This document shows, piece by piece, positions 6,299 to 15,059 of a stretch of DNA of 64,000 bases. The DNA lies in contig CAYPPJ010000005.1 in assembly GCA_964412585.1 (NCBI GenBank), positions 1,512-65,511 on the forward strand, written 5' to 3'. Position numbers and translations under genes: made by a program. The notes beneath the pieces were generated by a model. That model did not search any database, was not told the origin of the DNA, and saw nothing but the letters and a program-made list of their open reading frames with translations. Every line of letters begins with the position of its first letter. Positions within the stretch are counted from its first letter, which is position 1. Source of the DNA: an uncultured Candidatus Saccharibacteria bacterium (GTDB lineage Bacteria > Patescibacteriota > Minisyncoccia > Phycocordibacterales > PALSA-1337).

Positions 6299-7315
6299 CT
6301 ATCTCCTCAACATCACCCTCTGAACCGCCGCATAGATGTCTTTTTCACCCATGCCATAATGTTCGATGAGCTCATCAGGCTTCCCCGTCTGCCCAAATTG
6401 ATCTTTGACACCAATAAATTCTATAGGTACTGGAAAATGTGCAGCTAGACATTCTGCTACTGCTGAACCCATACCGCCGGCAATCTGATGTTCTTCAACA
6501 GTAACTATTCCACCAGTCTCATGAGCGAGCTTGATAATTGCGTGTTCATCTAACGGTTTAATCGTGGCCAGATTTAATACAACAACCTCCTTCCCTTCGT
6601 CTTCAAGTTTTTGTGCGACTTTCAAAGCTTTGAAAAGAAGTGCTCCTGTGGCGATAATGCCAATAGAATTTTTTGGTGCTTTTGAATTACCCGCTACCTT
6701 TTTTGTCCGAAATACTTCTTGCGCCTTTCCGATTTCAAATGGCGTGTCTTCAGTGGTGATGATGGGTGTCTTTTCGCGAGCTAGACGTATATAGGTCGGC
6801 GAATTTGTCTTGGCCGCAGCGATAGTCGCTTTCTTTGCTTCGATTGCATCACATGGTGAAATGACCACCATCCTCGGCAATACGCGAGTAATGGCAATGT
6901 CCTCAAGCGCCTGATGACTTCCTCCATCAGGGCCTACTGACACTCCCGCGTGTGAGCCAGCAATCTTGACTGGTCGGTTGTTGTAACAGACCGTCGTGCG
7001 AATCTGTTCCCAATTTCTTCCTGGACTAAATACGGCATACGAACTCACAAATGGAATCTTTCCCATGGCTGCCATGCCAGATGCCACACTGACCAAGTTT
7101 TGTTCTGCTACACCAATCTCGGTAAAGCGTTCAGGAAATTTCTTTTTGAATGCTTCCATCTGGGTCGATTCGGTGAGATCTGCGCAAAGACCAACGACGT
7201 TTTTATCTGCTTCGGCTGCTTTTAATAGACCTTCGCCAAAACCTTTGCGAATAGGAACTTGCTCGACTGTTTCGTCGAAGAGTTTGGGGTTGAGTTTTTG
7301 AGAGGGGGTGAGCAT
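6299..7315 (-). CDS. transketolase, C-terminal subunit (pyrimidine-binding and C-terminal domains)
   Basis: 338-aa ORF with a transketolase pyrimidine-binding domain pattern (PIRKGFGEGL, FTEIGVAEQN, GPDGGSHQALEDIA). It is the second half of a split tkt. Confidence 0.9.
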   Translation of the reverse strand: MLTPSQKLNPKLFDETVEQVPIRKGFGEGLLKAAEADKNVVGLCADLTESTQMEAFKKKFPERFTEIGVAEQNLVSVASGMAAMGKIPFVSSYAVFSPGRNWEQIRTTVCYNNRPVKIAGSHAGVSVGPDGGSHQALEDIAITRVLPRMVVISPCDAIEAKKATIAAAKTNSPTYIRLAREKTPIITTEDTPFEIGKAQEVFRTKKVAGNSKAPKNSIGIIATGALLFKALKVAQKLEDEGKEVVVLNLATIKPLDEHAIIKLAHETGGIVTVEEHQIAGGMGSAVAECLAAHFPVPIEFIGVKDQFGQTGKPDELIEHYGMGEKDIYAAVQRVMLRR

Positions 7316-7322
7316 ATGACTA

Positions 7323-7649
7323 TTAACTAGCTACGATCGACTTAGAAATTCCCGCAACAACTACAGCAACCATCGAACAGACGAGGACAATTTTATGCAT
7401 CTTAGTGATCGGCTGTTTCCTCTTTTTATAAATTATAGCGCTGATTATAAGTCCCAAAATAGAAGCTGCTAACAGTGGCCAAAATATGAACAATTGAGCA
7501 AGAACAAATTGAAGGCCAGAAAATATACACTCCATGTGAGTGGTAGTACGGCATGTATTGAATTCTAATACATATGCAATATCGGATCCTACTGACCCCA
7601 ACACTCCTATAGAACTTAACCAAGCAAAAGTTTTTATTGTGTTATTCAT
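7323..7649 (-). CDS. small hypothetical membrane protein inserted between the two transketolase subunit genes
   Basis: 108 aa with 3 predicted TM helices. Tightly packed between 7657 and 7315, on the same strand. Confidence 0.5.
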   Translation of the reverse strand: MNNTIKTFAWLSSIGVLGSVGSDIAYVLEFNTCRTTTHMECIFSGLQFVLAQLFIFWPLLAASILGLIISAIIYKKRKQPITKMHKIVLVCSMVAVVVAGISKSIVAS

Positions 7650-7656
7650 AAGTATA

Positions 7657-8538
7657 TTAATTATAATGCGGACTCTCTACATGACCACCTAACGTACGAA
7701 CATTTTTAAGAGCTTGGCGAGCGGTTTCTATCTCCTCCGGCGTTGTTGGTGGCTTTCCATGCCATTCAAACTTACGCTCAAATGCAGGCACTCCCTTTGA
7801 GGCAATCGTATTGGCAATGATCACTGACGGCTTATCAAAGACCGCCTGCGCCTGACCTATGGCGCGGTCAATGTCCCGAAAATTGTGACCATCGATCTCC
7901 TGCACATGCCAGTTCCAGGCGCGCCATTTATCGGCGAGCGGATTGAGCGGCATGACATCTTCGGTGAAGCCATCTATCTGAATATTGTTGCGATCTATAA
8001 TAGCAGTCAGATTTTGTAGACGCTCCTTGCCTGCCAGCATGGCACCCTCCCAACTATTACCCTCATTGAGTTCACCATCACTCATCAAACAATAAAATTG
8101 TTTGCCTGACGTCTTGCCATTGTCCATCCTATCAGCGAGCGCCATACCGACTGTTTGAGATAATCCGGAGCCGAGTGGACCAGATGAATTTTCGAGTGCG
8201 GGTAAAAATTCTCGATGCGGATGACCTTGGAGTTTCGAACCAAACTTACGTAGGGTTTTCAATTCTGAAACAGGAAAATATCCTGCATGTGCCATGGTGG
8301 CATACAACACGGGCGCAATATGACCATTTGAAAGGACCAGTCGGTCACGATACGGCCAGTCGGGCTTCTTGGGGTCATGTTTGAGCGCGTGGAAATAGAG
8401 ATAGGTGAAGATGTCAGCCATATCCAGAGGTCCAGCGGTGTGACCACTTTTTGCCTCGATTAAGGACTCGACAAGAGAGCGGCGAATGTCTTTCGCCTTG
8501 GCTTCGAGAAATGCTATTTTTTCATCGGTCAGAGCCAT
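7657..8538 (-). CDS. transketolase, N-terminal subunit (thiamine-diphosphate-binding)
   Basis: GHTAGPLDMADIF, a GDG...NEG TPP-binding motif, and GHPHREF. The annotated ORF extends to 8592. The start is probably MALTDEK at 8538. Confidence 0.9.
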   Translation of the reverse strand: MALTDEKIAFLEAKAKDIRRSLVESLIEAKSGHTAGPLDMADIFTYLYFHALKHDPKKPDWPYRDRLVLSNGHIAPVLYATMAHAGYFPVSELKTLRKFGSKLQGHPHREFLPALENSSGPLGSGLSQTVGMALADRMDNGKTSGKQFYCLMSDGELNEGNSWEGAMLAGKERLQNLTAIIDRNNIQIDGFTEDVMPLNPLADKWRAWNWHVQEIDGHNFRDIDRAIGQAQAVFDKPSVIIANTIASKGVPAFERKFEWHGKPPTTPEEIETARQALKNVRTLGGHVESPHYN

Positions 8539-8626
8539 GTATGTATTATAGTATATCATGTTGTTGACAGAGGTTCCCAACGGGGGTAGCATTTCTGGTG
8601 AACCCAGATCTGCAAAGCGTCATACG

Positions 8627-9345: not shown

Positions 9346-10023
9346 TTAATGTCCCAATTTCTTGAACTCCGTCACCGCATCCACATAGTTGTCTGCCTCA
9401 AAAATAGCAGAGCCGACGACAAGCCTATTTGCACCCGCTTCAAGAAGCGCCGACCCATTCTCCAATGAAACTCCCCCATCTACGGAAATAGGTATCTCTG
9501 GGTAAGCAGCTCGAACCTCTTTTATTTTATCAATGACTTTGGCATCAAAAGGTTGATGTTGGAAGCCAATAGTATCTATACCCATAAGCTGAATGCCTTG
9601 AATCTTATCTTTGTATGGTTCAATAGCCGAAATGGGTGTATCTATATTGAGTGCCAGACTTACTTCGATTCGATCTTTCAACTGATCGACCGCACCCTCA
9701 ATATTTCCACGTGCTTCAACATGAATAATAATACGTGTCGCACCAGCACTGACCCATTCCTCAACAACTTCTTCGGGACGGTTGGCCATAAGGTCAATCT
9801 CAAAGTTGAGCTTCTCCCAGCCAGGCAAACCTTCTTCTTCAGTTACAATCTTATGAAAAGAATCGTCTTCTTTGCGGTACGGCCAGGTGGCACTCGGCAC
9901 GAACTGACCATCACAGACATCGATCTGCACGGTTTTTACGAAATCCTTGATAAGGTCAATTTTTTCCCGGAGCTCAGCAAAATCCTTAGGAAGAATGGCG
10001 GGGATTATTTCAGGGCGTTTCAT
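9346..10023 (-). CDS. rpe: ribulose-phosphate 3-epimerase-like (TIM barrel)
   Basis: The N-terminal IIPAILPKDFAELREKI matches the Rpe IAPSILSADFA pattern. Later segments IHVEA..G and DGGV fit as well. Clustered with tkt and rpiB. Confidence 0.7.
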   Translation of the reverse strand: MKRPEIIPAILPKDFAELREKIDLIKDFVKTVQIDVCDGQFVPSATWPYRKEDDSFHKIVTEEEGLPGWEKLNFEIDLMANRPEEVVEEWVSAGATRIIIHVEARGNIEGAVDQLKDRIEVSLALNIDTPISAIEPYKDKIQGIQLMGIDTIGFQHQPFDAKVIDKIKEVRAAYPEIPISVDGGVSLENGSALLEAGANRLVVGSAIFEADNYVDAVTEFKKLGH

Positions 10024-10057
10024 ACATCGCAGTATAGCAAACTACATCACATTAATA

Positions 10058-10105
10058 AATCTTCAGCGAATCTTTATCAAAACTTCAGCGGGCTTCAACT
10101 TGACA
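10058..10105 (+). promoter_or_regulatory. phased 11-bp repeat array ending in a TTGACA -35 element
   Basis: Repeats AATCTTCAGCG, AATCTTTATCA and AAACTTCAGCG lie at 10058-10090. TTGACA lies at 10100-10105, then a 16-nt spacer and TATAAT at 10122-10127. The same array type occurs at 36355 and 50966. Confidence 0.5.
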
Positions 10106-10133
10106 GTAGAAAAAAGATACTTATAATTATAGG

Positions 10134-10228
10134 CGATGTAGTCTGTTTATCAGACCATCTGGAGCCCGACGAAAGGCGAATCATATCGCCAGATGATCGG
10201 CACAAAAAATCCCTCAAGGGATTTTTTG
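10134..10228 (+). ncRNA. candidate small RNA (~95 nt) with its own promoter and an intrinsic terminator
   Basis: The promoter lies just upstream. Internal hairpins are gtctg-tttat-cagac and catctgg...ccagatg, plus ggcgat...atcgcc. Terminator ATCCC-tcaa-GGGAT followed by TTTTTTG at 10209-10228. No ORF. Convergent with rpiB. Confidence 0.5.
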
Positions 10229-10249
10229 TTTATACTAAAATAACCTAAC

Positions 10250-10708
10250 TTACTCAATCGCATCTATCTGCTCAATCCGGCGAGCATGCCTTTCGTCTCC
10301 ACTAAATGGCGTAGTCAGCCAAACTTCTACCGCATCACTCGCCGCATCAGCTTCAACATACTTTGCACCTATAGATAGCACATTGGCATCATTATGCTCA
10401 CGAGTCTTTTTGAGAATATCTTGGTCACCTCCGTACCAAACAGCTGCACGTACTCCTGGAAAACGATTTGCAACCATCGCTTCACCCTGTCCTGAGGCGC
10501 CAAAAATAATAGCTTTGGTATTCCCTTTCAAATCTTCTGCAACCTTGAGGGCTGCAGCGGCCATGTAGGTAGGATAATCATCGCCATCTTTGAGTTCATG
10601 TGCACCGACATCGGTAACCTGATACCCTTCACCAACAAGAAATGTCTTGACTACTTCTTTGACGGCAAATCCGGCGTGATCTGTAGCGAGAATGATTGAA
10701 GGTTTCAT
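10250..10708 (-). CDS. rpiB: ribose-5-phosphate isomerase B (RpiB/LacAB family)
   Basis: 152 aa. The N-terminus ILATDHAGF and the overall RpiB/LacAB fold pattern match. Confidence 0.85.
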   Translation of the reverse strand: MKPSIILATDHAGFAVKEVVKTFLVGEGYQVTDVGAHELKDGDDYPTYMAAAALKVAEDLKGNTKAIIFGASGQGEAMVANRFPGVRAAVWYGGDQDILKKTREHNDANVLSIGAKYVEADAASDAVEVWLTTPFSGDERHARRIEQIDAIE

Positions 10709-12717: not shown

Positions 12718-14019
12718 CTATATCTTCCTCAACTCCTCCCTCACCACCTTTCTATCATCCCACGCACTTCGTACACCACCGATAACTATCGACTGTTCCG
12801 CACCTTTTCCAGTAATGAGAACAACATCACCGGCCTGCGCCAATGAAAGCGCCTTGCGAATCCCCTCTCTGCGATCTTCAATGACGAAGAGGTCAGTGCC
12901 GCGCTTTTTGCCGAACTTTTCAGCAACCGTGGCAATATCTTCAAGGATTTCTTGTGGATCGTCTTCGTACGGATCCACATTCGTCACGATGACATAATCC
13001 GCCAGACGTGCCGACAATTCTCCCATAATTGGACGCTTTGACTTGTCACGACCTCCACCTTCAGCACCAAGGAGAATGATCGTGCGTGCACCAGGCTTTC
13101 GCATCTGCTTGGCAGTATTCAAGACGTTCGTCATGCTCTGTTTTTCGTGAGCATAATCAACAATCACGGTATACGGCTGACCTTCATTGATCTGCTCCAT
13201 GCGTCCTGGAATAACCTCGAGTCCCATTAACCCATTTCGGATGATCGAATCATTCATACCAGAGATATGGCCGATAATGATGGCGGGCAATGCATTGTAG
13301 ACATTAAATCTTCCAAGAATGCGTATGCTAAATGGCGTACCATCGACGGCAAACGTGACTCCGGTGTCGCTCTCCTTGATACTGGTTGCACGTATCTCAG
13401 CGGATGAATCAATACCAAAGGTAATCTTGCGATCAGCTTTGTATGATAAATAAAATTCACTATGCAAATCATCGGTATTGGCGATAATAACTTTCTCCAC
13501 ACGCTTTCCTGCAATAATTTTGTGTGCCGAACCAAGTGCGGCAAACATAGTACCCTTGGTTTTTTTGTAGTGTTCAAAACTTCCTCCATGAGAAGGCAAA
13601 TGTTCCGGCGTAAGGTTGGTAAAGACCGCGATGTCATAGTACACACCGACGTGACGATACTGAAGAATTCCTTCTGACGTTGTCTCAACAATACAATGCG
13701 TACAACCTTCACTAACCATGCGCGCGAGCAATGCCTGGATAGTAAAACGCCCTGGCATGGTCATGTGATATTTATTCAAAACCTCTTCAGTACCAATACG
13801 AATATTCGCCGTACTAATGATGCCCGTCTTGTGCCCTCCCGCCATCAGTGTTGACCAGATGAAATTGGTAGCCGACGTCTTTCCTTTGGTGCCCGTAATA
13901 CCGATAACCACCATCTTTTTCGATGGTGATCCATAGCGGAGAGCAGCAGCTCGTGCGAGACAGTAATGATACCAGCCGAGCACAAACTTCGGCGTCAGTG
14001 AATGAATGAATTTCTTCAT
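12718..14019 (-). CDS. Mur ligase family protein (MurE-like UDP-MurNAc-tripeptide synthetase, short N-terminus)
   Basis: GITGTKGKTS P-loop, DYAHEKQ (compare the DYAHTPDAL motif of MurE), and Mur ligase middle and C-terminal domains. 433 aa, without a typical MurE N-terminal domain. Confidence 0.8.
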   Translation of the reverse strand: MKKFIHSLTPKFVLGWYHYCLARAAALRYGSPSKKMVVIGITGTKGKTSATNFIWSTLMAGGHKTGIISTANIRIGTEEVLNKYHMTMPGRFTIQALLARMVSEGCTHCIVETTSEGILQYRHVGVYYDIAVFTNLTPEHLPSHGGSFEHYKKTKGTMFAALGSAHKIIAGKRVEKVIIANTDDLHSEFYLSYKADRKITFGIDSSAEIRATSIKESDTGVTFAVDGTPFSIRILGRFNVYNALPAIIIGHISGMNDSIIRNGLMGLEVIPGRMEQINEGQPYTVIVDYAHEKQSMTNVLNTAKQMRKPGARTIILLGAEGGGRDKSKRPIMGELSARLADYVIVTNVDPYEDDPQEILEDIATVAEKFGKKRGTDLFVIEDRREGIRKALSLAQAGDVVLITGKGAEQSIVIGGVRSAWDDRKVVREELRKI

Positions 14020-15059
14020 ATGAAGCGTTTTATCAGTTTACGCAGATTGTAGAGATAATACCAGAGGGGCTGCGCGACTACGTCATAGAAGTCAGAGTGA
14101 ATAAGTTCGTGTCCCCCAAAGCGTGTTTTGAAACGTGTCAGTCCTTCCCAGCCTTTGTAGAGGTTGCCCAGTGATACACCACCAAAATTATATTCAGTAC
14201 AACCGATCTTCTTGGCATGCTTAATAGCTTCCCACTGTGCAATGTGAGTGATTCCCAGATTGCGATGCTCATCACTCGATCCCGCAAAGACATAGTTCGC
14301 AACTTTTCCATGATAGATGATGAGATCAACAGTGAGAATCGCCCCTTCGAACTTTGCGAGGACTAAATATGCATATTCAGGTTTCAGTGTATTAAAAATA
14401 TTTTCGTAATATTCTTTTTCATGAAGACTGAATCCGTTTCTATCCGACGTCTCCTTCATCAGTTTATAAAAATCAGGAAAATAGCGCGCAAAGTCAGATG
14501 TAATGATTTCCGTCGTCACTCCTTTCCTTCCTGCTAGACGAATAGAATAGCGATTTTTCTCGTGAATTTCCTTGTAGATATCTTCCTCAGTTTTATGCAA
14601 ATTCAAAACCCATTCTGCACGAGGTTGGAAATAGGCTGAATGATACGTGTACGATGGCGCACGCTTGAAATGCTTGTCGAGCTGAGCAATCTTGTTCTGA
14701 TCTCGTGCAGCTGGTGTAAAGTCGAGACGAATAAAAACTGCATTTCGCTCACGTGCCACTGCCATCATTTTTTCTTTGACGGCCTCGAGTATTTCATTTG
14801 AAAATTCGCTGACCACGGGACCATAGGGTGCGTACAGATACTTTCTATCTTTGATGAGGGGATATTCAGTGAGTTGAATATATGCCACTGCCTTTCCATT
14901 TTTTTCGCCTACAAATCGAAAAGTAGTGCGGCCCAAGTTCTCTTGCCACTCGCCGTACAATCGTGCCTGCGTAAAAGGTGCATCCGCGGAGATGGTGAGC
15001 GGGTCAAAGGGTTCTGATTGAAGGATGGGGCGGAATTCGATAGACGACATTACCTGCAT
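14016..15059 (-). CDS. FemAB-family peptidoglycan aminoacyltransferase (FemX/MurM-like)
   Basis: 347 aa with a YLYAPYGPV motif and a GNAT-tandem length typical of FemAB (PF02388). A 4-nt overlap with the upstream Mur ligase gene points to an operon. Confidence 0.7.
   Translation of the reverse strand: MQVMSSIEFRPILQSEPFDPLTISADAPFTQARLYGEWQENLGRTTFRFVGEKNGKAVAYIQLTEYPLIKDRKYLYAPYGPVVSEFSNEILEAVKEKMMAVARERNAVFIRLDFTPAARDQNKIAQLDKHFKRAPSYTYHSAYFQPRAEWVLNLHKTEEDIYKEIHEKNRYSIRLAGRKGVTTEIITSDFARYFPDFYKLMKETSDRNGFSLHEKEYYENIFNTLKPEYAYLVLAKFEGAILTVDLIIYHGKVANYVFAGSSDEHRNLGITHIAQWEAIKHAKKIGCTEYNFGGVSLGNLYKGWEGLTRFKTRFGGHELIHSDFYDVVAQPLWYYLYNLRKLIKRFI

What the first reader, a model, noticed from the sequence alone, without database searches (positions are those of the whole stretch)
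10134..10228. Free-standing ~95-nt sRNA gene between rpe and rpiB
A near-consensus promoter (TTGACA, 16 nt, TATAAT) is followed by a hairpin-rich sequence and a textbook intrinsic terminator (ATCCC-tcaa-GGGAT plus T6). There is no ORF.

The start of the sequence, UCUGUUUAUCAG, resembles the SRP RNA UCUGUUUACCAG segment. The downstream GGAAG/AGCAG motifs of SRP domain IV are not evident, so its identity is open.
Basis: seen in the sequence. Interest (0 to 1): 0.6.

Follow-up and report, generated by a model that had tools for sequence, protein, structure and literature searches.

The report
Orphan partner RNA of tRNA-like cassette
This is a real, conserved ~95-nt small RNA gene, not SRP RNA: it is the surviving half of a repeated two-RNA cassette in which a small RNA is complementary to the CCA-tailed end of a neighbouring tRNA-like RNA, an arrangement I could not find described anywhere.

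Summary
A 12/12 sigma-70 promoter (10100-10127) is followed by a hairpin-rich ~95-nt RNA (about 10134-10231) and a terminator. The SRP idea fails: no Rfam family matches, even at E<=10.

The RNA belongs to a cassette present three times in the window (10039-10232, 36336-36648, 50947-51283) and in related Patescibacteria. A full cassette has a conserved leader, a 68-100-nt tRNA-like RNA (TL), then a consensus promoter, a small RNA and a terminator.

In all 12 cassettes that keep a TL, the small RNA is complementary to its own TL. In 8 of them the core UGG-N-(acceptor complement) pairs for 7-13 consecutive bases with the TL 3' end plus a CCA that the gene does not encode. N covaries with the discriminator base. 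Net predicted duplex energy is -16.7 kcal/mol for cognate pairs and -4.8 for non-cognate pairs.

At this locus the TL body has been deleted. The small RNA is still far more conserved (72-91%) than synonymous sites of rpiB (45-49%).

Best reading: an orphan "anti-tRNA-like" base-pairing RNA that masks its partner's acceptor end. Physiological role unknown; expression untested.

The parts
10039..10089 (+). Conserved cassette leader, copy 1 of 3. The core is TCTTCAGCGAATCTTTA.
   Evidence: Direct-repeat family D2 with copies at 10039-10089, 36336-36386 and 50947-50997. The 17-mer occurs 3 times against 0.32 expected. An nhmmer profile of the leader also finds it in front of the cassettes of L001, L093 and L081.
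10084..10099 (+). Deletion scar of the tRNA-like (TL) gene. TTCAG is joined to CGGGCUUCAAC, so only the last bases of the acceptor 3' strand, the discriminator U and the trailer remain.
   Evidence: Read against L001, which has ..TTCAGTGGCCC[TL body]GATGGGCTTCAATTTGACA. Ten same-species contigs from different samples carry the identical 226-nt spacer.
10100..10127 (+). Sigma-70 promoter of the small RNA: TTGACA, 16 nt, TATAAT.
   Evidence: 12 of 12 match. 3 such sites in the window against 0.02 expected. A near-consensus promoter sits at the same place in all 12 cassettes examined, and in L231.
10134..10231 (+). Small RNA sRNA1, about 95-98 nt. The start is inferred from the -10 box; the end falls in the U-run 10222-10231.
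   Evidence: Fold of -36 kcal/mol, z = -4.97. Homologues fold the same way with z from -3.0 to -4.2. 72-91% identity against 45-49% at synonymous sites.
10135..10159 (+). 5' domain: GAUG/CAUC closing helix around hairpin P1 (GUCUG-UUUAU-CAGAC).
   Evidence: P1 is kept with different sequences in relatives: GUCUGC/GCAGAC, CGACAU/AUGUCG, UGAUAUG/CAUGUCA, AAGGUCUG/CAGAUCUU.
10156..10168 (+). Core CAUC-UGG-A-GCCCG. CAUCUGGAGCC is invariant in all 7 type A RNAs. UGGAGCC.. is the complement of a TL 3' end ..GGC-U-CCA.
   Evidence: Invariant block in alignment A1. 7-13 consecutive Watson-Crick pairs counted from A76 of TL+CCA in 8 cassettes. Pair counts on A3.
10175..10190 (+). Hairpin GGCGA-AUCAUA-UCGCC. 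It resembles a diverged antisense copy of a T arm (GAGGG-AAUCGAA-CCCUC).
   Evidence: In L093 the matching segment GAAUCGAAC is a perfect complement of the TL T loop. The homology claimed for the window copy is by reading only.
10204..10227 (.). Symmetric intrinsic terminator AAAAAAUCCC-UCAA-GGGAUUUUUU. It ends sRNA1 on the + strand and lies just past the rpiB stop (10250) on the - strand.
   Evidence: Sequence and fold.
36402..36540 (+). Cassette 2, TL gene. It comprises the extended -10 TTTGATACAGT (36402-36412), the leader hairpin 36420-36439, and the TL 36443-36540. The acceptor is GGGCCCG/CGGGUCC (G3.U70), followed by A73 and an encoded CCA.
   Evidence: Sequence, fold, weak hit of TL model R1 at 14.8 bits. 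Not called by ARAGORN or Rfam.
36543..36648 (+). Cassette 2, promoter TTGACT-17-TATACT and sRNA2. AACUGAUGAGGAUGGGC (36578-36594) is a perfect 17-nt complement of the TL segment 36464-36480. A terminator follows.
   Evidence: 17 nt for the cognate pair, at most 7 for non-cognate pairs. Fold. ddG of -17.0 kcal/mol.
51038..51146 (+). Cassette 3, TL gene. It comprises the extended -10 TTTGATAGAGT (51038-51048) and the TL 51077-51144: GGGGGUG...CACCUCC (G3.U70) plus A73.
   Evidence: TL model R1, built only from relatives, scores 43.2 bits, E 8.7e-10, over its full length. The Rfam tmRNA model matches only the tRNA-like ends (20 bits, E 2.8e-6, below the gathering score of 47).
51177..51283 (+). 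Cassette 3, promoter TTGACA-16-TATACT and sRNA3. ACUGUCGAGG (51211-51220) and AAGCUCCA (51242-51249) complement the contiguous TL stretch 51102-51119.
   Evidence: Fold. ddG of -24.0 kcal/mol.

Best explanation
The feature is an independently transcribed small RNA. It is the 'anti-tRNA-like' half of a two-gene RNA cassette.

A complete cassette runs in this order:
- a conserved leader and an extended -10 promoter
- a 68-100-nt tRNA-like RNA (TL)
- directly after it, with no terminator of its own, a consensus promoter, the small RNA and the only terminator

The TL has a 7-bp acceptor stem, a mini D arm with GG, an 8-10-bp 'anticodon' stem, a canonical T arm and a discriminator base. The 3' CCA is not encoded in 11 of the 12 TL genes; cassette 2 of this window (36538-36540) does encode it. 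The promoter arrangement means the small RNA should always be made in at least the amount of TL (inferred).

The small RNA is built to base-pair with its own TL. In type A RNAs such as this one, the invariant single-stranded UGG-A-GCC... pairs with the mature 3' end ...GGC-U-CCA and runs on into the acceptor 3' strand. In some cassettes it also covers the T loop. A short segment just before the terminator matches the TL apical loop.

The inferred effect is that the acceptor stem is unzipped and the CCA end is masked. This would hold the TL inactive or mark it for decay. The logic is that of an RNA antitoxin, anti-sRNA or sponge.

At this locus the TL body and its promoter have been deleted. 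The window copy is therefore an orphan partner RNA, still intact and under purifying selection.

Shown by computation: the cassette architecture, the TL fold, cognate-specific complementarity including the non-templated CCA, and conservation. Inferred: transcription, the in vivo interaction, its consequence, and what the TL does.
For: 1. Real gene. The promoter is 12/12. The fold has z = -4.97. Homologues fold alike. Identity is 72-91% against 45-49% at four-fold sites of rpiB.

2. Cassette. There are three leader copies in the window. Two of them carry TL plus sRNA. The same layout is seen in L001, L081, L093, L009, L099, L100, L002, L089, L005 and L231.

3. TL is a structured RNA distinct from tRNA. 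94% of cells pair, 16 of 24 pairs show compensatory change, and 0 of 500 shuffles reach this. Model R1 finds the untrained window TL at 43 bits, while the true tRNA-Gln scores 10.7 bits. ARAGORN calls only the L005 TL, as an implausible tRNA-Asp with anticodon AUC, and none of the others; no TL reaches Rfam's tRNA threshold in the sources scanned.

4. Pairing with the CCA end.
- Runs of 13, 12, 12, 10, 9, 8, 7 and 7 Watson-Crick pairs counted from A76 in 8 cassettes.
- Only 2-5 pairs if the genome-encoded trailer is used in place of CCA.
- The discriminator pair is U-A in 6 cassettes and A-U in 2.
- 0 of 500 shuffles reach the observed pairing or covariation score.

5. The other cassettes pair elsewhere, again specifically with the cognate TL: 17, 14, 10+8 and 15 nt.

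6. At the locus orthologous to cassette 3 (L231), both the TL apical region and the sRNA 5' end have been replaced, and they are still complementary to each other.

7. Net cofold ddG is -16.7 kcal/mol for cognate pairs and -4.8 for non-cognate pairs, p = 2e-7. sRNA1 is still predicted to bind the type A TLs of L081 (-22.5) and L001 (-11.7).

8. Accessory behaviour.
- The same rpiB-rpe spacer is empty in many relatives.
- In others it holds a RelB/YafQ toxin-antitoxin pair.
- L230 has lost a whole cassette.
Against: - There are no transcript data, so neither RNA is shown to be made, processed or CCA-tailed.
- The partner TL is absent from this locus. No TL ending ...CGUCGGGCU was found in the 64 kb. 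The window copy has no known target, so its conservation needs another explanation: a TL elsewhere in the genome, other targets, or a recent deletion.
- The acceptor-complement segment equals the TL's own 5' strand. Part of the covariation could therefore come from duplication or gene conversion. This does not explain the UGG.
- The 8 cassettes with the CCA match fall into two sequence families, so they count as far fewer than 8 independent events for the shared 7-mer.
- Where the sRNA pairs on the TL differs between cassettes. That fits generic antisense action but no single precise mechanism.
- In L001, L100 and L089 the run is only 7-8 bp and must compete with an intact acceptor stem.
- All energies are nearest-neighbour predictions.
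Confidence: 0.55

Rival explanations
1. An ordinary trans-acting regulatory sRNA whose real targets are mRNAs elsewhere in the genome. On this view the relation to the tRNA-like RNA is historical, reflecting descent from a tRNA-like gene.
For: The window copy survives intact without its neighbouring TL and is strongly conserved. UGGAGCC is presented unpaired. The sRNA looks partly derived from TL sequence.
Against: No stand-out complementary site was found in the 64 kb: 14 non-self 10-mers against 7.7 +/- 3.9 in shuffles. The part of the RNA that varies tracks the neighbouring TL in every complete cassette. mRNA targeting does not predict that.
Confidence: 0.12
2. The two RNAs form a stable, functional heterodimer, a two-piece RNA analogous to two-piece tmRNA or crRNA:tracrRNA. 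They are not an inhibitor and its target.
For: - The TLs of cassettes 2 and 3 and of L002, L089 and L005 have the G3.U70 + A73 acceptor of tmRNA and tRNA-Ala.
- The tmRNA model matches the cassette 3 TL ends at E 2.8e-6.
- The permuted-tmRNA model pairs the TL 3' strand with GGGGGAG of sRNA3.
Against: - Both hits are far below gathering score (20 and 14.9 bits against 47).
- The sRNAs hold no conserved tag reading frame or stop. Frames differ by indels between W1 and L001.
- The TL already has its own 5' acceptor strand.
- L231 has G3-C70.
- An obligate heterodimer would not leave a conserved orphan half.
Confidence: 0.1
3. A decaying remnant or a passive sequence. The hairpin is merely the rpiB terminator, and the promoter match has no role now that the partner gene is gone.
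For: The terminator is symmetric and abuts the rpiB stop. The TL and its promoter are deleted here. Whole-cassette loss occurs in L230.
Against: The promoter is 12/12. All helices are intact. Identity to L001 is 91% where synonymous sites are 49%. The differences from L001 fall in loops and linkers. The sequence is fixed and identical in 10 contigs from several samples.
Confidence: 0.08
4. A primer-template pair. The CCA-ended TL anneals to the UGG... site as a tRNA does to a retroviral primer-binding site, and is extended by a polymerase copying the sRNA 5' hairpin.
For: UGG plus the acceptor complement (7-13 nt, plus the T-loop complement in L093) sits about 25-35 nt from the sRNA 5' end. 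This is the layout of R-U5-PBS.
Against: - A Pfam sweep of about 57 window ORFs found no reverse transcriptase. About 17 of the ORFs scanned have no family.
- Cassettes 2 and 3, L005 and L231 lack a match reaching the TL 3' terminus: 2-3 consecutive pairs from A76 for cassettes 2 and 3 and L005, none seen by reading for L231. They pair with internal TL regions instead.
Confidence: 0.07
5. A T-box-like sensor acting in cis. Binding of an uncharged tRNA or TL to UGGN would control the terminator, and so control antisense read-through into the convergent rpiB.
For: UGGN:NCCA pairing with covariation of N is the T-box hallmark. A second contact to the apical loop exists in five cassettes. All three window cassettes face a convergent gene.
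Against: - No T-box model hit, even at E<=10.
- No alternative antiterminator overlaps the terminator stem in the fold.
- No same-strand gene lies downstream.
- The pairing extends deep into the acceptor stem, which a T-box never does.
Confidence: 0.05
6. A divergent SRP (4.5S) RNA.
For: A 12-nt resemblance (UCUGUUUAUCAG, or UCUGUUUACCAG in L001) to a segment recalled from E. coli 4.5S RNA.
Against: - No SRP hit at any threshold.
- No domain IV motifs.
- The fold is three hairpins.
- The RNA is absent from the same site in many close relatives.
- Its variable part tracks a neighbouring tRNA-like gene.
Confidence: 0.01

Closest known systems
T-box riboswitch (tRNA-sensing leader, Rfam RF00230)
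   Same: It reads a tRNA-shaped RNA at two points. One is UGGN pairing with the N-CCA 3' end, with N covarying with the discriminator. The other, in several cassettes, is a short segment pairing with the apical 'anticodon' loop.
   Different: - It is a free-standing ~95-nt RNA with its own promoter and no downstream gene.
- The order of the two contacts is reversed.
- There is no Stem I, platform or antiterminator.
- The pairing continues 3-9 bp into the acceptor stem.
- There is no covariance-model match.
Retroviral / LTR-retrotransposon primer-binding site
   Same: A stretch beginning UGG that complements the CCA end, the acceptor 3' strand and, in L093, part of the T arm of a tRNA-shaped RNA. 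It is placed a short distance from the 5' end of the RNA that carries it.
   Different: It is shorter (7-13 nt against 18). No reverse transcriptase was found nearby. Sister cassettes pair with internal TL regions instead. The host is bacterial and the 'primer' is encoded next door.
Type I and type VIII toxin-antitoxin loci and sRNA/anti-sRNA sponge pairs (e.g. tisB/istR-1, SdsR/RyeA, 3'ETS-leuZ); comparison from general knowledge
   Same: - Two small adjacent genes, each with its own promoter.
- A constitutively strong promoter on the base-pairing RNA.
- Partial, cognate-specific complementarity.
- Several diverged copies per genome and patchy presence among close relatives.
- The cassette occupies a site that holds a RelB/YafQ pair in other relatives.
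   Different: The partner encodes no conserved peptide (read from the sequences). It is a folded tRNA-like RNA. Toxicity is untested. The pairing targets a non-templated CCA end.
tmRNA tRNA-like domain and two-piece (permuted) tmRNA. This applies to the partner RNA, not to the finding itself.
   Same: Some TLs have the G3.U70 + A73 acceptor, a T arm, and a long helix in place of the anticodon arm. The Rfam tmRNA model aligns to their two ends.
   Different: The TLs are only 68-100 nt with no mRNA-like domain. The score is below threshold. Type A TLs have a GCC.../U73 acceptor. L231 has G3-C70.

Membership tests
Bacterial SRP RNA (Rfam RF00169 / RF01854) | Covariance-model match at or near the family's gathering score | tested here: not met
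   No SRP hit on the whole window at gathering score. None on 10000-10270 at E<=10. None on six related loci.
Bacterial SRP RNA (Rfam RF00169 / RF01854) | One long hairpin pairing the 5' and 3' ends, with the domain IV loops and a GNAR tetraloop | tested here: not met
   The MFE and the centroid show three separate hairpins. The apical loops are UUUAU, AUCAUA and UCAA.
Bacterial SRP RNA (Rfam RF00169 / RF01854) | Universal single-copy housekeeping gene kept in all close relatives | tested here: inconclusive
   The RNA is absent from the syntenic spacer in many close relatives, but their whole genomes could not be scanned.
T-box leader (RF00230) | Covariance-model match; Stem I with specifier loop; antiterminator that competes with the terminator | tested here: not met
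   No hit at E<=10. No alternative pairing with the terminator stem in the fold.
T-box leader (RF00230) | UGGN pairing with the NCCA end of the tRNA, with N covarying with the discriminator | tested here: met
   A3: the pairs to A76, C75 and C74 are invariant. The discriminator pair is U-A in 6 cassettes and A-U in 2. This is a resemblance in mechanism only.
T-box leader (RF00230) | Controls a downstream gene on the same strand | tested here: not met
   Downstream on the + strand is only the antisense of rpiB. The same holds for cassettes 2 and 3.
tRNA (for the partner TL RNAs) | Called by ARAGORN or reaches the Rfam tRNA threshold; 5-bp anticodon stem with a 7-nt loop | tested here: not met
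   ARAGORN and Rfam call only tRNA-Gln in the window. Among the related loci only L005 is called, as an implausible tRNA-Asp with anticodon AUC. Type A TLs have a 10-bp stem and a 6-nt loop.
tmRNA / two-piece tmRNA (for TL plus sRNA) | Model match at gathering score; a tag reading frame with a stop; pseudoknots | tested here: not met
   20 and 14.9 bits against a gathering score of 47. No conserved frame in the sRNAs. ARAGORN finds no tmRNA.
Antisense RNA / RNA antitoxin paired with a neighbouring gene (type I or type VIII-like) | Adjacent partner gene, own promoters, cognate-specific complementarity | tested here: met
   for the family as a whole. At the window locus itself the partner is deleted.
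Antisense RNA / RNA antitoxin paired with a neighbouring gene (type I or type VIII-like) | The partner is harmful when expressed alone and is neutralised by the RNA | not testable with these tools
   This needs expression experiments.
Retroelement primer-binding site | An associated reverse transcriptase and a cDNA product | tested here: not met
   No RT domain among about 57 window ORFs scanned. The rest of the genome was not seen, and products are not testable here.

The most novel reading that the evidence does not exclude
Patescibacteria of this lineage carry a previously undescribed class of RNA-only cassettes. Each holds a non-decoding tRNA-like RNA with an over-long anticodon stem, some with the alanine G3.U70 acceptor. 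Each TL is coupled to a dedicated small RNA that recognises it at the post-transcriptionally added CCA end and at the apical loop, like a trans-acting T-box.

The pair would work in one of two ways:
- as an RNA-toxin/RNA-antitoxin system in which the toxin is a tRNA or tmRNA mimic, or
- as a controlled pool of non-ribosomal aminoacyl carriers, for example for the FemAB-type transferase encoded at 14016-15059.

The window RNA would be an orphan antitoxin or sensor.
Probability: 0.4. Interest if true: 0.9.

Novelty: categorically new. Interest (0 to 1): 0.78.

Why it matters
If the pairing is real, this is a small RNA whose target is the acceptor end of a folded tRNA-like RNA, including the CCA added after transcription. 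Until now that kind of recognition has been known from T-box leaders, RNase P, the ribosome and retroviral primer sites, not from free-standing bacterial sRNAs.

It would also define a new family of non-decoding tRNA-like RNAs in the Candidate Phyla Radiation, where almost no regulatory RNA biology is known. The family has three copies in 64 kb of a very small genome.

The questions it raises can be tested directly. Are these RNAs aminoacylated? Do they poison or serve translation, ribosome rescue or cell-wall synthesis? Do RNA-only addiction modules exist?

The cassettes are short and self-contained, and the cognate pairs are already in hand. Gel-shift, probing and heterologous toxicity assays could therefore be set up from the sequences alone.

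Tried and rejected
- SRP, 6S, tmRNA, T-box and all other Rfam families. Nothing was found on the finding at gathering score or at E<=10. The hits listed at E<=10 are terminator look-alikes.

- ARAGORN on the window and on 14 loci. No tRNA or tmRNA was found at the cassettes, apart from one doubtful call in L005.

- Peptide-coding readings. I read the small ORFs in the sRNA and TL regions, and possible tmRNA-like tags in the sRNAs, in the sequences. None is conserved in frame or length.

- Attachment-site or duplication origin. This would give direct repeats of the tRNA 3' part. It explains neither the UGG nor the inverted complementarity of cassettes 2, 3, L005 and L231.

- RNAduplex on full-length RNAs. 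It allows huge interior loops and was uninformative. I replaced it with exact-run counts and cofold ddG.

- Two DNA-pattern scans of viral contigs. The 40 hits to the loose core pattern are unrelated, mostly one phage coding region. The single leader hit lies in a giant-virus MAG contig (L229) with no cassette-like features around it. The cassette was not found there.

- mRNA target search within the window. Not significant.

- Homologues of the gene next to cassette 3 (51347-52420). None were found; it is an orphan. I used the binding-protein neighbour instead.

- Six literature searches. No paper describes such a cassette. The held library is incomplete, so this is not proof of absence.
Full report
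**1. The observation.**
The window's 10024-10249 is the spacer between rpe (9346-10023, minus strand; Ribul_P_3_epim) and rpiB (10250-10708, minus strand; LacAB_rpiB).

On the plus strand, TTGACA (10100-10105), a 16-nt spacer and TATAAT (10122-10127) form a 12/12 promoter. Exact consensus promoters occur three times in the window against 0.02 expected. The other two precede protein genes.

The RNA that would start near 10134 folds at -36 kcal/mol, z = -4.97. Its parts are:
- a 5' stem, GAUG/CAUC around the hairpin GUCUG-UUUAU-CAGAC
- four unpaired bases, UGGA
- a second domain holding the hairpin GGCGA-AUCAUA-UCGCC
- the terminator AAAAAAUCCC-UCAA-GGGAUUUUUU

The terminator is symmetric and lies 22 nt past the rpiB stop, so it probably serves both strands.

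**2. Not SRP RNA.**
A scan of all 4227 Rfam families finds only tRNA-Gln (55061-55131) in the window. At E<=10 on 10000-10270 it finds only terminator look-alikes. The UCUGUUUAUCAG segment is a local hairpin.

**3. Organism and relatives.**
RpiB relatives place the window in the Patescibacteria (Candidate Phyla Radiation), among MAGs labelled Ca. Taylorbacteria, Paceibacterota and Parcubacteria.

The rpiB-rpe spacer varies among close relatives:
- Many have rpiB directly followed by rpe.
- Some carry a RelB/YafQ toxin-antitoxin pair there (L095, confirmed; similar inserts in L096, L013, L103 and L107).
- About ten lineages carry small-RNA genes on the opposite strand.

L001, L081, L093, L009/L102, L099 and L100 hold homologues of the window RNA, which I call type A. 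Their invariant block is CAUCUGGAGCC. Each has a near-consensus promoter, and they share the same three-part fold.

The window RNA is 91/82/72% identical to the L001/L081/L093 copies. Four-fold degenerate sites of the adjacent rpiB are 49/45/48% identical. The RNA is therefore under purifying selection. Ten same-species contigs from different samples carry an identical spacer.

**4. A second gene in the unit.**
In every one of those relatives, a ~68-nt tRNA-like element (TL) lies between rpe and the small-RNA promoter. It is preceded by an extended -10 box (TTGATACAGT) and a conserved leader.

Six type A TLs align without difficulty and support the following structure:
- a 7-bp acceptor stem
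- a 2-bp D stem with a GG loop
- a 10-bp 'anticodon' stem with the 6-nt loop UUGUYA
- a canonical T arm
- discriminator U

In this alignment 94% of cells pair, 16 of 24 pairs show changes on both sides, and 0 of 500 shuffles reach that. Slid controls pair at about 50%.

ARAGORN calls none of the TLs except L005, as an implausible tRNA-Asp with anticodon AUC, and none reached Rfam's tRNA threshold in the sources scanned.

The window has lost this TL by a clean deletion. It reads ...TTCAG|CGGGCTTCAACTTGACA where L001 reads ...TTCAGTGGCCC[TL body]GATGGGCTTCAATTTGACA.

**5. Three cassettes in the window.**
The ~50-nt leader occurs three times: 10039-10089, 36336-36386 and 50947-50997. The second and third copies are followed by complete cassettes.

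Cassette 2:
- TL at 36443-36540, with acceptor GGGCCCG/CGGGUCC (G3.U70), A73 and CCA
- promoter at 36543-36571
- sRNA2 at 36578-36648

Cassette 3:
- TL at 51077-51144
- promoter at 51177-51204
- sRNA3 at about 51210-51283

A covariance model built only from the relatives' type A TLs finds the cassette 3 TL at 43.2 bits (E 8.7e-10). It scores the genuine tRNA-Gln at 10.7 bits. The TLs are therefore one family, distinct from tRNA.

Rfam's tmRNA model aligns only to the two ends of the cassette 3 TL (20 bits, E 2.8e-6, gathering score 47).

The TL genes have no terminator of their own. The -35 box of the small RNA follows within 2-35 nt (read). TL transcription should therefore run on into the small-RNA gene (inference).

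**6. The small RNAs match their own TL.**
The segment after the invariant CAUC is UGG, then one base, then a copy of the TL's 5' acceptor strand. That makes it the exact complement of the TL's acceptor 3' strand, its discriminator and CCA.

The CCA is not encoded. Type A genes continue UCAA, UAC, UUAG or UAG after the discriminator. L002 and L089 continue CAAU.

Counting consecutive Watson-Crick pairs from A76 gives 13 (L093), 12 (L009), 12 (L099), 10 (L002), 9 (L081), 8 (L001), 7 (L100) and 7 (L089). With the genome-encoded trailer in place of CCA the counts are only 2-5.

The base opposite the discriminator covaries. It is A opposite U73 in six type A cassettes and U opposite A73 in two type B cassettes. 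Percent paired and covariation score exceed all 500 shuffles, and slid controls fall to 30-52%.

Further complementary patches:
- In L093 the next segment, GAAUCGAAC, complements the T loop.
- In L009, L099, L093, L002 and L089, six bases just before the terminator (UGACAA, GACAAC or UGGUAA) complement the TL apical loop.
- The window lineage keeps only ACAA at that position.

Cassettes without the CCA match pair elsewhere on their own TL:
- cassette 2: 17 nt
- L005: 14 nt
- cassette 3: 10+8 nt on a contiguous TL stretch
- L231: 15 nt with one G.U

L231 sits at the locus orthologous to cassette 3. There, both the TL apical region and the sRNA 5' end differ from the window's, yet they remain complementary to each other.

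After paying for each monomer's own fold, predicted heterodimer formation averages -16.7 kcal/mol for the 12 cognate pairs and -4.8 for the 132 non-cognate pairs (Mann-Whitney p = 2e-7). sRNA1 is still predicted to bind the type A TLs of L081 (-22.5) and L001 (-11.7).

**7. Interpretation.**
The finding is a real small-RNA gene, the base-pairing half of a two-RNA cassette. The most economical mechanism is that the small RNA anneals to the mature TL, opens its acceptor stem and covers the CCA end, inactivating or destabilising it.

Four observations support this mechanism:
- The small RNA is made from a consensus promoter and, additionally, by read-through from the TL promoter (inferred).
- Copies are multiple and diverged.
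- Distribution among relatives is patchy. Loss can be total (L230) or TL-only (this locus).
- The same site holds a protein toxin-antitoxin pair in other relatives.

These features resemble addiction-type or sRNA/anti-sRNA modules. That is an analogy, not a demonstration.

What the TLs do is unknown. Their over-long anticodon stem argues against decoding. From established tRNA biology, G3.U70 plus A73 is the AlaRS identity set and works in minihelices. Five of six type B TLs have it, so they could be alanylated; L231 has G3-C70.

Two speculative roles are a tRNA/tmRNA mimic that is harmful unless masked, and a non-ribosomal aminoacyl carrier. A FemAB-family aminoacyl-tRNA transferase gene lies at 14016-15059.

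**8. The orphan problem.**
No TL with the matching 3' end (...CGUCGGGCU) exists in the 64 kb, and no strong mRNA target was seen. There are three possibilities: the partner lies elsewhere in the genome, the RNA has other targets, or the deletion is recent. The data here cannot separate these.

**9. Rivals and limits.**
- A two-piece functional RNA, a primer-template pair and a T-box-like attenuator each explain some features but fail others (see the rival entries).
- No reverse transcriptase, integrase or Cas gene was found among about 57 window ORFs. About 17 of those scanned have no Pfam family.
- Nothing similar was found in IMG/VR with two patterns.
- Six literature searches found nothing similar.
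- Everything rests on sequence. No expression, processing or binding data exist.
- The cassettes sampled come from one family-level clade and three loci, so independent events are fewer than the cassette count suggests.

Noticed in passing
window 36336-36648 and 50947-51283 (+ strand): Two complete, unannotated cassettes of the same family: leader, tRNA-like RNA, consensus promoter, small RNA, terminator. Each small RNA is complementary to its own tRNA-like RNA (17 nt and 10+8 nt).
   Followed up: yes
window 51077-51147: The tRNA-like RNA of cassette 3 aligns to the two ends of Rfam's tmRNA model (G3.U70, T arm, ...UCCAC) at E 2.8e-6. The 328 central model positions are replaced by 26 nt. It looks like a tmRNA tRNA-like domain without the message part.
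   Followed up: partly
L095 2522-3076; also L096, L013, L103, L107 (rpiB-rpe spacer of relatives): The same spacer that holds the RNA cassette here holds a RelB antitoxin + YafQ toxin pair in other close relatives, and nothing in many others. The site is a hot spot for small accessory modules.
   Followed up: partly
L230 1620-1805 (minus strand): At the locus orthologous to cassette 3, the leader ATCTTCAGCAAATCTTT is fused directly to the terminator CCGCCAGTGGGCGGATTTTTGATTATAT. The whole cassette has been excised, leaving only its two ends.
   Followed up: no
window 14016-15059 (-), next to Mur ligase 12718-14019 (-): A FemAB-family gene (aminoacyl-tRNA-dependent peptidoglycan bridge transferase; Pfam E 2e-36) lies 4 kb from the finding. 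It is a conceivable user of non-decoding, chargeable tRNA-like RNAs. No link was tested.
   Followed up: no
window 10120-10133 and 10153-10126 (- strand): The -10 region reads TATAATTATA, so a TATAAT also exists on the minus strand. Together with CTGATA it makes a 10/12 promoter-like site facing rpe. In addition, TGCTATACT (an extended -10) lies just upstream of the rpe ATG, which suggests a leaderless or near-leaderless rpe mRNA.
   Followed up: no
window 50990-51030; L002 (leader of its cassette): The cassette 3 leader carries a ~40-nt insertion with the hairpin GGTGAATG-TGCT-CATTCAGC. It is also present, slightly diverged, in the L002 cassette leader. The leaders also contain TTCTTCA-like boxes repeated at roughly 11-nt spacing, which may be regulator binding sites.
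   Followed up: no
window 25441-50889: A striking expansion: 13 Peripla_BP_6 (LivJ-like) binding-protein paralogues, with liv-type permeases and ATPases and three TrmB-family regulators. Cassettes 2 and 3 both abut such binding-protein genes.
   Followed up: partly
window 6299-7315 and 7657-8592 (-): Transketolase is split into separate C-terminal (Transket_pyr + Transketolase_C) and N-terminal genes. They are separated by a small 108-codon ORF with a hydrophobic, membrane-like sequence (7323-7649).
   Followed up: no
window 51347-52420 (-): A 357-aa protein next to cassette 3 has no Pfam family. It has no homologue at E<=1e-30 other than itself among 5.8 billion protein clusters.
   Followed up: partly
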